Assembly (NCBI GenBank): GCA_016204045.1
Contig: JACQLQ010000004.1
Location: 164,927 to 228,926, forward strand
Length of the DNA: 64,000 nucleotides
Source: Parcubacteria group bacterium
GTDB lineage: Bacteria > Patescibacteriota > Minisyncoccia > Phycocordibacterales > UBA2135
Direction: 5' to 3'
Numbering within the stretch: the stretch's first letter is position 1; the number at the start of each line of letters is the position of its first letter. Position numbers and translations under genes: made by a program. Positions 27,528 through 30,383 of the stretch are shown here, piece by piece. Below the pieces are notes generated by a model. That model was not told where the DNA came from. It ran no database searches and was given only the letters and a program-made list of their open reading frames with translations.

Positions 27528-30383
27528 CTAGACGGCAACAATATTGACCAGCTTGCCTTGTACGTAAATCACTCGTTTCACCTCCTTGCCAAGCGTCCAT
27601 TTCTTGACCGACTCTTCCGCGAGTGCCTTCTCTTTTACCGCATATTCTTCTTCTTCCGGAGAAATGTCAAGTTCTCCGCGCACTTTGCCGTTCACTTGTA
27701 TGACGACGGTGATTTTTCCCTCTTTTATTTTTGTTTCATCATGGTTCGGCCAACTCTCTGTATACAGAGATTTTTTATTTCCAAGCATGTGCCAAAGCTC
27801 TTCGGTGATGTGCGGCGCAAAAGGGTAAAGCAAAAGAAGAAGGGTTGTGTACGTCGCGAGCGGCACCTCCCCCATTGTCTCAAGACTGTTTACAAAAACC
27901 ATCATCGCTGATACTGCGGTGTTAAACCGAAACGCCTCGATGTCTGTCGTCACTTTCTTTATTGTCTTGTGTGTCAGAATGTCTATCTCTTCTGTGTGCA
28001 GAGCGTCTTTGTTCACCTTTTCTTGCAGACGCCACACCTTCTCCAGGAACCTCCGTGGCCCGATAATGCTTTCCGCACTCCACATACTACTCTCTTCAAA
28101 GGGCCCCATAAACATTTCGTAGAGGCGTAGTGTATCTGCTCCATAGTTCGAGACCACATCGTCGGGATTCACGACATTCCCCCACCGCTTCGACATCTTG
28201 CGCCCGTCTTCGCCATAAATAAGTCCGACACCCTTCAGGCGTCCGAAGGGCTCCCGATAGTTCACAACACCAATGTCATAGAGAAACTTGTGCCAGAAGC
28301 GTGCATAAATGAGGTGACGCGTTGCATGCTCGACTCCTCCTTCATAGAGATCGATCGGCGACCAGTATCCCTCTTTCTTTTTATCGACAAGTGCTGAGTT
28401 ATTGTGAGGGTCGATAAAGCGAAGGTAATACCAAGAAGAGCCGGCCCACTGGGGCATAGTATTTGTCTCGCGCTTTCCCTTGCCTCCACAATTAGGGCAT
28501 GCAACATTGACCCATTCCTCGATTGCCGCAAGCGGAGACTCCCCCGTCCCTGTTGGTTCGTACGATACTACGTCAGGAAGCACCACGGGCAGATCTTTCT
28601 CCGCGACAGGCACAACACCACACTTGCTACAGTGGATCATTGGAATCGGCTCACCCCAATACCTTTGGCGAGAGAACACCCAATCGCGCAGTTTATAGTC
28701 CACTTTTCTTTCGCCGCCAACAAATTCGGTGATACTCCACTTCGCTTCTTCACTTGAAAGACTGTCGAATGTACCCGAGTTCTTGAGTATGCCTCCGCCC
28801 GTATATGCACAGACTCCGTTGCTACAGAGCATCTCGAGGGCATGTTGGTGCGAGTCGGGTGTCAGAAAAGTTTTAAGCTCATTGAGGGTAAGCCACAAGA
28901 CTTCGTGCTTTGCTTGTTCCTCCTCGGTCACATCTACCCGAGCATCGCCTTCTAACTGAAAGAGGAGTACTCGAGAGTGAGCAAAACGATTGACCTTTTT
29001 GGGCACATGATAGAACTTCCCGTGCACTATACCGAAATCGTGTACCAACCGGAGACTCTGATAGCCTGTTTCTTCTTCAATCTCCGCACGCGCAGCGCTC
29101 TCCGCTGTCTGCCCCTTCTCAATACCTCCGGTAATAAAGGTACCCCAAGCGACCTGCTTCCACTTGAGCGCCATATACTTCTCTTCTGACCAATGCTTCA
29201 CGATTGCGATGATCGCATCGCGGTGGTCAAAGGGCAAGCCCTCTTTCACCTTCCCTGGCTCTGTAGATTGGGTAAAGACAGGCTCTATGACTTCGCGTAT
29301 AGGCAATCCAAATTTCTGCGCAAATGCAAAGTCGCGCTCATCATGCGCGGGTACCGCCATAATGGCTCCCGTGCCGTAATGCGCGAGAACATAATCAGCG
29401 ATCCACACAGGCAACGCCTCCTTGTTCGCTGGGTTTATAGCCTTGACCCCCTTGAGCTCGACTCCCGTCTTTTCTTTTTCTCCCGCCGTCCTCTCCAGGT
29501 CTGTTTTCCTCTTCGCTTGCGCTACGTATTCATTCACCTCTTCTGTATTCAAAATGCTCGATGCCAACTTCGTAACCAACGGATGCTCCGGCGAGAGTAC
29601 CATATATGTCGCACCAAAAAGCGTATCTGGCCTCGTCGTAAAAACTTTTATTCCAAATTCTGAATTCTGAATCTTAAATTCTATTTCTGCTCCTTCGCTT
29701 CTGCCAATCCAGTTTCGTTGTGACTCCTTGATGTGCTCTGGCCACTCAAGGTCGCTCAAATCTTCCAACAGTCGATCAGCGTACTCACGAATCTTCAACA
29801 CCCATTGTCGTATCGGTCTCTGCTCTACATCACTCCCGCAGCGCTCACACTTACCCGCCTCCAGATCCTCGAAAGCAAGCCCCGTCTTGCATGAAGGGCA
29901 CCAGTTAATCGGCTCGTGGGACTCGTAGGCAAGCCCCTTCTTCCAAAGCTGGAGGAATATCCACTGTGTCCACTTGTAGTACTTTGGGTCGGTTGTATTT
30001 ATCTCGCGCTCCCAGTCATAGTTAAGTCCGAGTTTCTCTAACTGCTCTTTGAAGTGCGCAATGTTTTTTTCTACTGCGACTTTGGGGTGTATTTTGTTCT
30101 TGATGGCATAGTTTTCTGCGGGCAAACCAAAAGCATCCCACCCCATGGGATGCAATATGTTGTATCCGCTCATCTTCTTGAAGCGAGAATAGATGTCGGA
30201 GGCAATATAGCCCTTCGGGTGCCCCACATGAAGCCCCTCCCCCGAGGGGTAGGGAAACATGTCGAGCACATAGGCCTTGGGCTTCTTGGGGTCCTCCTCG
30301 GTTTTGTAGAGATTCTCTTTGCGCCAAGCTTCCTGCCACTTCTTTTCTATTTTTTTATGGTCGTACTGACGCATACCCGCCAT
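27528..30383 (-). CDS. leuS: leucine-tRNA ligase with an inserted Nudix-like domain
   Basis: HVGH, CP1 editing motif [12 protein letters not shown], KMSKR; about 150 extra residues (approx. aa 370-530) containing [23 protein letters not shown]. Confidence 0.93.
   Translation of the reverse strand: [951 protein letters not shown]

What the first reader, a model, noticed from the sequence alone, without database searches (positions are those of the whole stretch)
28841..29231. Leucyl-tRNA synthetase carries a ~150-aa inserted Nudix-like domain
LeuS is about 951 aa here, versus about 800-880 aa typically. Alignment to the canonical LeuRS order (from the E. coli sequence as recalled) places about 150 extra residues between the end of the CP1 editing domain (…[23 protein letters not shown]) and the resumption of the catalytic core (…[28 protein letters not shown]). 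The insert contains [23 protein letters not shown], a recognisable but variant Nudix box, with flanking elements consistent with a complete Nudix fold. A nucleotide-pyrophosphatase-like module inside an aminoacyl-tRNA synthetase could be an extra proofreading, Ap4A-handling or regulatory domain. I am not aware of this being described.
Basis: partly seen in the sequence, partly recalled or inferred. Interest (0 to 1): 0.55.

Follow-up and report, generated by a model that had tools for sequence, protein, structure and literature searches.

The report
Nudix hydrolase domain nested inside LeuRS
The leucyl-tRNA synthetase of this ultra-small (Parcubacteria/CPR) bacterium has a complete Nudix hydrolase domain, apparently still catalytic, inserted in a loop of its proofreading domain; hundreds of related CPR bacteria share this, yet I found no paper describing it.

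Summary
leuS (27528-30383, minus strand, 951 aa) is a canonical bacterial LeuRS with about 156 extra residues (370-525; nt 28809-29276). These residues match Pfam NUDIX above threshold and fold with high confidence as a Nudix alpha/beta/alpha sandwich.

One correction: the insert lies inside the CP1 editing domain, about 20 residues after the catalytic Asp, not between CP1 and the core.

The feature is not unique to this window:
- 119 of the 120 nearest LeuRS homologues carry it.
- It turned up in 127 species genomes, and essentially all of the 80 listed are Patescibacteria/CPR.
- Copy number is 1-3 per protein, at four or more insertion sites.
- The same Nudix family also exists free-standing (sometimes next to leuS or cysS) and inside a few ProRS.

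The metal-binding glutamates (E434, E437, E438) are 94-100% conserved in about 400 copies. The window has a co-varying Q425/A433 variant of the box.

A syntenic close relative has a LeuRS with a 19-residue loop in place of the domain, so the insert is dispensable for aminoacylation.

The best reading is an active pyrophosphohydrolase tethered to the synthetase, most plausibly clearing Ap4A-type adenylate by-products. The substrate is inferred, not shown. I found no description in the searchable literature. I rate it a new variant of a known kind, of moderately high interest.

The parts
27528..30383 (-). leuS, leucyl-tRNA synthetase, 951 aa, with a nested Nudix domain
   Evidence: The ORF is. 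TIGR00396 scores 1027 bits against a cut-off of 548. The sequence is identical to an NCBI MAG protein, 'leucine--tRNA ligase [Parcubacteria group bacterium]' (P0180). The full-length AF2 model has pLDDT 90.6 and pTM 0.80. Foldseek top hits are LeuRS structures 2bte, 5omw and 4aq7, TMt 0.80-0.84.
30219..30230 (-). HIGH signature of the class I catalytic core (HVGH, residues 52-55)
   Evidence: Motif position. H52, G54 and H55 are invariant in 81 orthologues.
29277..29717 (-). CP1 editing domain, N-terminal part (residues 223-369). It holds the T-rich motif TTRPDT (249-254) and the editing Asp in AHDERD (D348).
   Evidence: PF13603 matches residues 223-372, covering profile positions 1-146 of 185. 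Motif positions. T249, T250, R251, T254, H347 and D348 are invariant in 81 orthologues.
28809..29276 (-). Inserted Nudix domain (residues 370-525)
   Evidence: The gap against Tth LeuRS is. PF00293 scores 40.7 and 45 bits. AF2 pLDDT is about 89-96 across the insert in the full-length model and 93.7 when modelled alone. Foldseek returns Nudix structures, best 2azw at TMt 0.84.
29061..29129 (-). Nudix box G419-x5-Q425-x7-A433-E434-I-x-E437-E438-x-G440-Y441. It is a variant of GX5EX7REUXEEXGU, with E->Q and R->A.
   Evidence: Translation. E434, E437 and E438 are 94-100% conserved in 417 copies, and positions 425/433 co-vary as ER versus Q+A/M/T/S.
28986..29012 (-). Family-specific region after the box (residues 458-466: Y458, K462, N465, R466). 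It lies in the 'X-loop' area that sets Nudix substrate specificity.
   Evidence: K462, N465 and R466 are 90-100% conserved at sites A and B and in free-standing copies; Y/F458 is 93-97%. The X-loop about 17 residues after the box is described in PMC5389931. Tyr/Phe at +17 in Ap4A hydrolases is described in PMC2425470.
28713..28808 (-). CP1 editing domain, C-terminal part (residues 526-557), which resumes after the insert
   Evidence: Tth 376 onward aligns from query residue 526. In the insert-less relative P0258, PF13603 runs uninterrupted over profile positions 1-183 of 185.
28185..28199 (-). KMSKS signature (KMSKR, residues 729-733)
   Evidence: Motif position. K729, M730 and K732 are invariant in 81 orthologues.

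Best explanation
A complete Nudix pyrophosphohydrolase domain is nested in a surface loop of the CP1 editing domain of an otherwise canonical, editing-competent bacterial LeuRS. The two enzymes are made as one polypeptide.

Shown:
- The Nudix fold.
- An intact metal-binding glutamate triad under strong purifying selection.
- Intact HIGH, KMSKS and editing motifs in the host enzyme.
- Ancient and recurrent association of this one Nudix family with aminoacyl-tRNA synthetases in CPR bacteria: LeuRS at four or more sites and 1-3 copies, a few ProRS, and free-standing genes next to leuS or cysS.

Inferred:
- The domain is catalytically active.
- Because it associates with class I and class II synthetases of different amino-acid specificity, it probably acts on something common to all of them, namely adenylate chemistry.
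- The most likely substrate class is dinucleoside polyphosphates such as Ap4A. Synthetases make these when the aminoacyl-adenylate is attacked by ATP, and the domain would cleave them back to ATP + AMP close to where they are made.

Layered confidence:
- Nudix domain nested in CP1: 0.97.
- Catalytically active hydrolase: about 0.75.
- Functionally linked to synthetase chemistry: about 0.5.
- Ap4A/ApnA specifically: about 0.3.

The single confidence value given (0.45) is for the statement as a whole, taken as an active hydrolase functionally tied to synthetase adenylate chemistry.
For: Domain identity and fold.

Position inside CP1.

Host enzyme intact.

Selection on catalytic residues: E434 and E438 are about 100% conserved and E437 is 94%, in 271 site-A, 71 site-B and 60 free-standing copies. 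Family-specific R388, K462, N465, R466, E489, H493 and W497 are 79-100% conserved at sites A and B and in free-standing copies. Copies within a single protein are only 22-48% identical to each other, so the duplications are old and were retained.

Spread:
- 119 of the 120 best LeuRS homologues have PF00293.
- 127 species genomes matched, and 76 of the 80 listed loci carry the domain embedded in LeuRS.
- More than 100 clusters at 50% identity.

Link to synthetases in general:
- Five ProRS clusters carry the same family, at E 1e-47 to 1e-62 against the family HMM.
- A free-standing copy sits immediately upstream of leuS (L002/L048 and L041).
- Another sits 30 bp downstream of cysS (L087).

Ap4A lead:
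- Tyr/Phe lies 17 residues after the box in 93-97% of copies. This feature is reported as common to Nudix Ap4A hydrolases (PMC2425470).
- The nearest characterised structures and profile hits are Ap6A/Ap4A hydrolases and RppH bound to Ap4A: 1vc8, 3i7u, 4mpo, 7sp3, 1f3y.
- Synthetases are a main source of Ap4A and Nudix enzymes degrade it (PMC10148737).
Against: - No biochemical evidence of any kind exists.
- The window's box departs from consensus at two positions (Q425, A433). Their effect on activity is unknown.
- Similarity to Ap4A hydrolases is weak: 14-22% identity, profile E-values about 1e-5 that rest mostly on the box. The single best structural match (2azw) is uncharacterised.
- No NCBIfam equivalog reaches its cut-off.
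- An aromatic residue at +17 sits in a beta-strand of the model (E444-459). I judge it not very discriminating.
- A syntenic relative 73% identical outside the insert has no Nudix in its LeuRS. The domain is therefore not needed for LeuRS function.
- Most free-standing copies I examined are not next to a synthetase gene.
- I could not read model coordinates. Whether the Nudix active site faces the synthetic or the editing site is unknown.
Confidence: 0.45

Rival explanations
1. Housekeeping passenger. The Nudix domain is an ordinary house-cleaning enzyme (oxidised NTPs, ADP-ribose or similar) with no mechanistic link to aminoacylation. It sits in insertion-tolerant surface loops of a large, essential, constitutively expressed protein. 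In streamlined CPR genomes this guarantees its expression and retention.
For: - Related LeuRS also carry unrelated hydrolase domains in the same protein: alpha/beta serine hydrolase after about residue 242, and HAD at 1001-1155 of P0185. This suggests LeuRS loops are general landing pads.
- The insert is cleanly absent in a syntenic close relative.
- The Nudix part evolves faster than the core: 47% versus 60-72% mean identity.
- Most free-standing copies are not beside synthetase genes.
Against: - Nearly all long proteins among the family's 150 listed matches are LeuRS, and the non-LeuRS fusion identified is another synthetase, ProRS.
- The same family was inserted at four or more different LeuRS sites and kept in up to three old copies. 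That is hard to explain without a benefit tied to LeuRS.
- Some free-standing copies abut leuS or cysS.
Confidence: 0.2
2. RNA 5'-end pyrophosphohydrolase or decapping enzyme (RppH-like). The Nudix domain removes pyrophosphate or Np4/NAD caps from RNA 5' ends, and the tRNA-binding synthetase acts as its RNA-binding platform.
For: - The best, though sub-threshold, NCBIfam matches of embedded and free copies are RppH models.
- RppH structures are among the Foldseek hits at TM about 0.65-0.69.
- The insertion sites cluster in and around CP1, which handles the tRNA acceptor end.
Against: - Every RppH score is far below its cut-off: 16-27 bits for single-copy proteins, and at most 57.8 for the three-copy P0030, against cut-offs of 116-259.
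- From general knowledge, mature tRNA carries a 5' monophosphate, so there would be no substrate on the bound tRNA.
- The ProRS insertion lies between the anticodon-binding and C-terminal domains, a different geometry.
Confidence: 0.13
3. Adenylate hydrolase. The domain hydrolyses aminoacyl-adenylates, giving extra pre-transfer proofreading. Alternatively it hydrolyses adenylate-mimicking inhibitors of LeuRS, such as agrocin-84-type compounds, giving self-protection.
For: - The domain is physically nested in the proofreading domain of an editing synthetase.
- It also occurs in ProRS. From general knowledge, bacterial ProRS also edits misactivated amino acids.
- LeuRS is a known target of adenylate mimics. 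PDB entries 3zgz and 5ah5 appear among the structural matches.
Against: - From general knowledge, Nudix enzymes cleave pyrophosphate linkages. Aminoacyl-adenylate is a carboxylic-phosphoric anhydride and is not an established Nudix substrate.
- The canonical CP1 editing site is fully conserved, so no gap in editing needs filling.
- There is no evidence on inhibitors.
Confidence: 0.1
4. Non-catalytic module. The Nudix fold serves as a ligand sensor or a structural or protein-interaction domain that regulates LeuRS.
For: - The window's box lacks the canonical E and R at positions 425 and 433.
- Non-enzymatic Nudix domains are known (Nudix clan review PMC5389931, abstract listed).
Against: - The three metal-binding glutamates and E489 are 92-100% conserved at sites A and B and in free-standing copies, including the Q/A-type copies.
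- About half of the embedded copies carry a fully canonical box (ER pairs).
Confidence: 0.07

Closest known systems
Nudix dinucleoside-polyphosphate (Ap4A/Ap6A) hydrolases and RppH, e.g. Aquifex aq_158 (3i7u), T. thermophilus Ndx1 (1vc8), Chlamydia CT771 (4mpo), E. coli RppH (7sp3)
   Same: - Same alpha/beta/alpha Nudix fold, TM 0.65-0.82.
- Same metal-binding REUXEE glutamates.
- An aromatic residue 17 positions after the box.
- They are the nearest characterised relatives by both fold and profile.
   Different: - Only 14-22% identity.
- The family has its own invariant residues: R388, W408, W413, K462-x2-N465-R466, H493, W497.
- It is usually nested inside a synthetase instead of free-standing.
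- All NCBIfam equivalog scores are far below their cut-offs.
- The substrate is unknown.
E. faecalis 'MutT/nudix family protein' (PDB 2azw, structural-genomics entry, no function given in the entry title)
   Same: It is the best match both by fold (TMt 0.84, E 1.8e-11) and by profile over the whole domain, including the C-terminal helix (E 1e-6).
   Different: It is free-standing, 19% identical, and from a Firmicute. It gives no functional information.
Aminoacyl-tRNA synthetases that carry an extra enzymatic domain, e.g. NCBIfam NF040702 'isoleucine--tRNA ligase, N-acetyltransferase domain-containing'
   Same: A class I synthetase of the Leu/Ile/Val group has a second, unrelated catalytic domain in the same polypeptide. 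The family name appears in the output.
   Different: The extra domain there is a GNAT acetyltransferase, not a Nudix hydrolase. I did not examine that family's architecture. The window protein scores only 79.8 bits against its cut-off of 1999.
Canonical bacterial LeuRS (T. thermophilus 1h3n/2bte, E. coli 4aq7)
   Same: - Same domain order and the HIGH and KMSKS motifs.
- CP1 has its T-rich motif and catalytic Asp.
- The C-terminal domain is present.
- 34-39% identity, TMt 0.80-0.84.
   Different: - A 156-residue Nudix domain replaces a loop of about 10 residues in CP1.
- The ~60-residue segment between Tth 578 and 636 is missing. From memory, that segment is the leucine-specific domain.

Membership tests
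Bacterial leucyl-tRNA synthetase (TIGR00396 leuS_bact) | Whole-protein score above the curated equivalog cut-off | tested here: met
   1027.2 bits against a cut-off of 548.4.
Bacterial leucyl-tRNA synthetase (TIGR00396 leuS_bact) | Class I signatures HIGH and KMSKS | tested here: met
   HVGH at residue 52 and KMSKR at residue 729. Both are conserved in 81 orthologues.
Bacterial leucyl-tRNA synthetase (TIGR00396 leuS_bact) | CP1 editing domain with the T-rich motif and the conserved Asp | tested here: met
   PF13603 at E 4.2e-64. TTRPDT at residue 249 and AHDERD at residue 346. T249, T250, R251, T254 and D348 are invariant.
Bacterial leucyl-tRNA synthetase (TIGR00396 leuS_bact) | Leucylation of tRNA-Leu | not testable with these tools
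   This needs an enzyme assay.
Nudix hydrolase superfamily (Pfam PF00293) | Profile score above Pfam's gathering threshold | tested here: met
   40.7 bits in the whole protein and 45.0 bits on the insert alone, against 21.1.
Nudix hydrolase superfamily (Pfam PF00293) | Alpha/beta/alpha sandwich fold | tested here: met
   The AF2 domain model has pLDDT 93.7 and pTM 0.88. 548 PDB matches have E <= 0.001, and the top 50 are all Nudix proteins.
Nudix hydrolase superfamily (Pfam PF00293) | Metal-binding glutamates of the REUXEE helix | tested here: met
   E434, E437 and E438 are present in the window. They are 94-100% conserved over 417 copies.
Nudix hydrolase superfamily (Pfam PF00293) | Strict 23-residue consensus GX5EX7REUXEEXGU | tested here: not met
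   The window has Q425 in place of E and A433 in place of R. The two positions co-vary across the family: ER in about half of the copies, Q+A/M/T/S in most of the rest. All other consensus positions are met.
Nudix hydrolase superfamily (Pfam PF00293) | Divalent-cation-dependent pyrophosphohydrolase activity | not testable with these tools
   This needs an enzyme assay.
Nudix Ap4A/ApnA hydrolase subgroup | Tyr or Phe about 17 residues downstream of the Nudix box (PMC2425470) | tested here: met
   The window has Y458, 17 residues after Y441. Y/F frequency is 93% at site A, 97% at site B and 95% in free-standing copies. Literature statement.
Nudix Ap4A/ApnA hydrolase subgroup | Specific sequence or structure relatedness to characterised Ap4A hydrolases, beyond the generic Nudix core | tested here: inconclusive
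   These are the nearest characterised hits. However, identity is 14-22% and profile E-values are 2e-5 to 5e-4. ADP-ribose, NTP and DHNTP pyrophosphatases score almost as well.
RNA pyrophosphohydrolase RppH (NCBIfam PRK00714 models) | Score above the equivalog cut-off | tested here: not met
   The window protein scores 15.8-18.9 bits against cut-offs of 116-241. Free-standing P0015 scores 26.5 bits against 118.

The most novel reading that the evidence does not exclude
In CPR bacteria, LeuRS (and occasionally ProRS) has become a scaffold for a set of nested hydrolases: one to three Nudix domains, alpha/beta serine hydrolases and a HAD phosphatase. Together these would form a previously unrecognised, synthetase-attached layer of quality control or nucleotide salvage. 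They would destroy adenylate-derived by-products (Ap4A and relatives), and possibly mis-made intermediates, at the site of production. The organisms concerned cannot make nucleotides de novo.
Probability: 0.15. Interest if true: 0.85.

Novelty: new variant of a known kind. Interest (0 to 1): 0.62.

Why it matters
Aminoacyl-tRNA synthetases are among the most conserved enzymes known, and bacterial ones rarely acquire new catalytic domains. Here, one Nudix family has been inserted into LeuRS repeatedly across a whole bacterial radiation. It occurs at several sites, in up to three copies per protein, and its catalytic residues are preserved. It also occurs in ProRS.

If the domain acts on synthetase by-products such as Ap4A, this would be the first case of an alarmone or by-product hydrolase built into its producer. 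It would bear on how ultra-small, nucleotide-auxotrophic symbionts economise ATP and control Ap4A signalling.

If it does not, the finding still shows that CP1 loops of LeuRS tolerate whole-domain insertions. That is useful for protein engineering and for understanding how CPR proteins grow while their genomes shrink.

The question is directly testable with one recombinant protein and a natural insert-less control (P0258).

Tried and rejected
1. Recent horizontal or mobile insertion: rejected.
- Insert GC is 0.511 against 0.496 for the rest of the gene, and GC3 is similar.
- There are no flanking direct or inverted repeats beyond chance 15-16-mers.
- Orthologous inserts occur at the same site across many CPR lineages.

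2. Annotation or assembly artefact (two genes fused): rejected.
- The reading frame is uninterrupted.
- LeuRS sequence resumes in frame after the insert.
- The same architecture is found on hundreds of independent contigs.

3. Degenerate, inactive Nudix remnant: disfavoured, because of the conservation of E434, E437, E438 and E489.

4. A free-standing paralogue of this family in the window: none found. The only other Nudix ORF (9658-10275, +) matches the family HMM weakly, over the box region only.

5. A first genome-contig scan with an 18-sequence alignment failed because no stretch was conserved enough. It succeeded with a closer 7-sequence alignment.

6. A single-sequence PDB search with the insert gave only marginal hits, topped by a spurious Cas9 match. 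The profile search was more informative.

7. Six literature searches found no paper on a synthetase-Nudix fusion. Checking the Nudix clan review for 'tRNA synthetase' and 'aminoacyl' also found nothing. Absence from this library is not proof of absence from all literature.

8. I could not obtain model coordinates or a PAE matrix, so I could not measure the orientation of the Nudix site relative to the synthetic and editing sites.
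Full report
**1. What is in the window**

The ORF at 27528-30383 on the minus strand encodes a 951-residue protein. It scores 1027 bits on the NCBIfam equivalog for bacterial LeuRS, against a cut-off of 548. Its sequence is identical to a GenBank MAG protein named 'leucine--tRNA ligase [Parcubacteria group bacterium]', from a 268,591-bp contig (P0180).

The neighbouring genes are ordinary housekeeping genes:
- MnmA
- YceG
- a protein with sigma-70 region 4 and HARE-HTH domains
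- a small putative membrane protein with no Pfam match
- YchF

The class I signatures are present: HVGH at residue 52 and KMSKR at residue 729. So are the editing-site motifs: TTRPDT at 249 and AHDERD at 346. All are invariant across 81 orthologues.

**2. The observation**

A phmmer alignment to T. thermophilus LeuRS matches Tth 1-365 to query 4-369, and Tth 376-577 to query 526-722. Query residues 370-525 (nt 28809-29276) therefore replace a loop of about ten residues.

Pfam finds NUDIX (PF00293) at residues 412-507. It scores 40.7 bits in the whole protein and 45.0 bits on the excised insert, against a gathering score of 21.1.

AlphaFold2 gives confident models:
- Full length, on an 81-sequence alignment: pLDDT 90.6, pTM 0.80, with the insert at about 89-96.
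- Insert alone: pLDDT 93.7, pTM 0.88, with the strand and helix order of a Nudix sandwich.

Foldseek against the PDB returns LeuRS structures for the whole model, at TMt 0.80-0.84. For the domain it returns only Nudix proteins, best 2azw at TMt 0.84.

**3.

First, the insert is not between CP1 and the catalytic core. The Pfam editing-domain profile is interrupted at position 146 of 185. In the insert-less relative P0258 it runs uninterrupted over positions 1-183. The sequence after the insert ([32 protein letters not shown]) aligns to the end of CP1. The Nudix domain is therefore nested within CP1, about 20 residues after the catalytic Asp348.

Second, the 'variant' Nudix box can be described exactly as G419-x5-Q425-x7-A433-E434-I-x-E437-E438-x-G440-Y441. 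Only the first Glu and the Arg of GX5EX7REUXEEXGU are replaced. The REUXEE glutamates are intact.

**4. This is a family trait, not a singularity**

An exhaustive HMMER search of 1.84 billion representative proteins with the insert gave 336 clusters at E <= 0.001. Of the 150 listed, about 100 are LeuRS or LeuRS fragments that carry the domain. The rest are mostly free-standing proteins of 150-200 residues.

Of the 120 best LeuRS homologues of the window protein, 119 have PF00293 precomputed.

A scan of one genome per species (GTDB) with two family-specific peptides found 127 genomes. The 80 listed are Parcubacteria/Paceibacterota, Saccharibacteria, Moranbacteria, Berkelbacteria, Doudnabacteria and other Patescibacteria. 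A handful carry odd labels (Woesearchaeota, Nanoarchaeota, Gammaproteobacteria, Bdellovibrionales), which I take to be binning or labelling errors but did not verify. In 76 of the 80 loci the domain is embedded in LeuRS. A Woesebacteria (Microgenomates) LeuRS also has it (P0248).

Among 212 complete Nudix-bearing LeuRS in my (biased) sample:

| Copies per protein | Proteins |
|---|---|
| 1 | 166 |
| 2 | 35 |
| 3 | 11 |

| Insertion site (window numbering) | Copies |
|---|---|
| after ~370 (the window's site) | 206 |
| after ~210-220 | 52 |
| after ~240 | 9 |
| after ~630-650 | 2 |

Copies within a single protein share only 22-48% identity. They are therefore old duplications or independent insertions, not recent events.

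**5. Selection**

I examined 417 distinct domain copies: 271 at site A, 71 at site B, 5 at site C, 60 free-standing and 10 other.
- E434 and E438 are essentially invariant, and E437 is 94% (otherwise Gln).
- At sites A and B and in free-standing copies, family-specific residues are 79-100% conserved: R388, K462, N465, R466, E489, H493 and W497.
- W408 and W413 are 74-88% conserved.
- Positions 425 and 433 co-vary. They are either the canonical E/R pair or Q with a small or hydrophobic residue (A, M, T, S). The window is Q/A, the commonest type among free-standing copies.

The Nudix segment evolves faster than the LeuRS core. Mean identity to the window is 47%, against 60-72% for the core. I read this pattern as a working enzyme with a less constrained surface, not as a decaying remnant.

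**6. Links beyond LeuRS**

The same family occurs in several other contexts:
- It is inserted between the anticodon-binding domain and the C-terminal domain of a small clade of ProRS. The five clusters are P0175 and P0299-P0302, which match the family HMM at E 1e-47 to 1e-62. The 115 other listed ProRS homologues lack it.
- It is free-standing immediately upstream of a leuS that itself carries an embedded copy (L002/L048 and L041).
- It is free-standing 2.4 kb upstream of an insert-less leuS (L042).
- It is free-standing 30 bp downstream of cysS (L087).
- Three other free-standing copies have unrelated neighbours.
- NCBI names two free-standing copies 'leuS' (P0015, P0016). I presume the name was transferred from fused homologues.

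**7. A natural control**

Contig JACOWN010000004 (L088) has the same gene order as the window: YchF, small protein, LeuS, sigma4/HARE-HTH, DUF8128, YceG, MnmA. An extra sigma-factor gene sits after YchF. Its LeuRS (P0258, 813 aa) is 73% identical to the window protein outside the insert. It has a 19-residue loop where the window has the Nudix domain. The domain is therefore not required for LeuRS to function, and gain or loss is clean at the loop.

The insert shows no compositional anomaly and no flanking repeats.

**8. How it most likely works**

Shown:
- a complete Nudix fold
- intact metal ligands
- an intact host enzyme
- old, recurrent and selective association with aminoacyl-tRNA synthetases

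Inferred: the domain is an active pyrophosphohydrolase. It accompanies class I LeuRS and class II ProRS, and sometimes sits beside cysS, so its substrate is more likely tied to chemistry shared by all synthetases than to leucine or tRNA-Leu.

Synthetases are a main cellular source of Ap4A, made when ATP attacks the enzyme-bound aminoacyl-adenylate. Nudix enzymes are the universal asymmetric Ap4A hydrolases (PMC10148737).

Three weak pointers fit this reading:
- A Tyr or Phe lies exactly 17 residues after the box in 93-97% of copies. This feature is reported as common to Nudix Ap4A hydrolases (PMC2425470).
- The nearest characterised neighbours by fold and by profile are Ap6A/Ap4A hydrolases and RppH bound to Ap4A.
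- The cluster of invariant basic residues (R388, K462, R466, H493) would suit a polyphosphate chain. This last point is my inference.

I therefore commit to 'synthetase-tethered ApnA or adenylate-by-product hydrolase' as the single most likely mechanism, at about 0.3 for the substrate itself.

The rivals are:
- a passenger house-cleaning enzyme exploiting an insertion-tolerant essential protein (0.2)
- an RppH-like RNA-end hydrolase (0.13)
- an aminoacyl-adenylate or adenylate-mimic hydrolase (0.1)
- a non-catalytic module (0.07)

The passenger idea gains weight because related LeuRS also carry alpha/beta serine hydrolase and HAD domains. It loses weight because the Nudix family's fusions identified here are with synthetases.

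**9. Comparison with what is known, and novelty**

The host is a member of bacterial LeuRS, and the insert is a member of the Nudix superfamily. Every defining feature I could test was met, except strict consensus at two box positions. It is not a member of any NCBIfam-defined Nudix equivalog.

Synthetases with an added enzymatic domain are known as a kind; NCBIfam has a model for a GNAT-containing IleRS.

Six full-text searches found no description of a Nudix domain in a synthetase. The 2017 survey of the Nudix clan mentions neither 'tRNA synthetase' nor 'aminoacyl'. The sequences and their automatic Pfam labels are public, so the architecture is visible in databases. As a described biological feature, however, it appears new.

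I rate it 'new variant of a known kind'. Interest is 0.62: a specialist would be surprised by the scale (multiple sites, multiple copies, a whole radiation, two synthetase classes), and it is easily testable. The function remains inferred.

**10. Limits**

- There is no biochemistry.
- I had no access to model coordinates or PAE, so the geometry relative to the LeuRS active sites is unknown.
- The counts come from searches seeded with this family and are not an unbiased census of CPR LeuRS.
- Taxon labels are those given by the depositors.

Noticed in passing
Relatives, not the window: P0255, P0240, P0216 (after about residue 242) and P0185 (residues 1001-1155): Close LeuRS homologues carry further nested hydrolase domains besides Nudix. 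These are one or two alpha/beta serine-hydrolase domains (PF06821, PF00561, PF12697) and a HAD phosphatase (PF13419), giving proteins of up to about 1560 aa. CPR LeuRS looks like a hotspot for inserted hydrolases.
   Followed up: partly
P0175, P0299-P0302 (locus L089 2906-4837): The same Nudix family is inserted into a small clade of class II prolyl-tRNA synthetases, between the anticodon-binding domain and the C-terminal domain. The nearest insert-less ProRS are labelled Nanoarchaeota/Woesearchaeota, so the family may cross between CPR bacteria and DPANN archaea.
   Followed up: partly
L088 10001-12442 (GCA_016176785.1): A genome syntenic with the window has a LeuRS 73% identical outside the insert, but with a 19-residue loop in place of the Nudix domain. 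This is a natural with/without pair.
   Followed up: yes
window 27528-30383 (around residues 722-729): This LeuRS lacks the ~60-residue segment of T. thermophilus LeuRS between Tth 578 and 636. From my memory of the Tth structure, that segment is the leucine-specific domain. Its absence partly hides the size of the Nudix insertion in the total length.
   Followed up: no
P0015, P0016 (L001 6001-6474): Free-standing 157-aa Nudix proteins are named 'leuS' in GenBank MAG records. I presume the name was transferred from Nudix-bearing LeuRS homologues, which would make it an annotation error.
   Followed up: partly
window 37440-37565 (-): Rfam match to the LOOT RNA motif (RF03000): 78.5 bits against a gathering score of 46.4, covering the full model.
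   Followed up: no
window 9658-10275 (+): A second, unrelated Nudix-box ORF (about 205 aa) matches the LeuRS-insert family HMM only weakly, over the box region (E 1.1e-5). It is not a member of the insert family.
   Followed up: partly
window 32001-44000: GC content drops to 0.39-0.47, against about 0.50 elsewhere, and rises to 0.56 at 44001-46000. The low-GC stretch includes a ParB-N/DNA-methylase fusion ORF at 34971-36305. It could be a mobile or foreign segment.
   Followed up: no
window 17547-17618 (-): tRNA-Glu(CTC) is the only tRNA gene in the 64-kb window.
   Followed up: no
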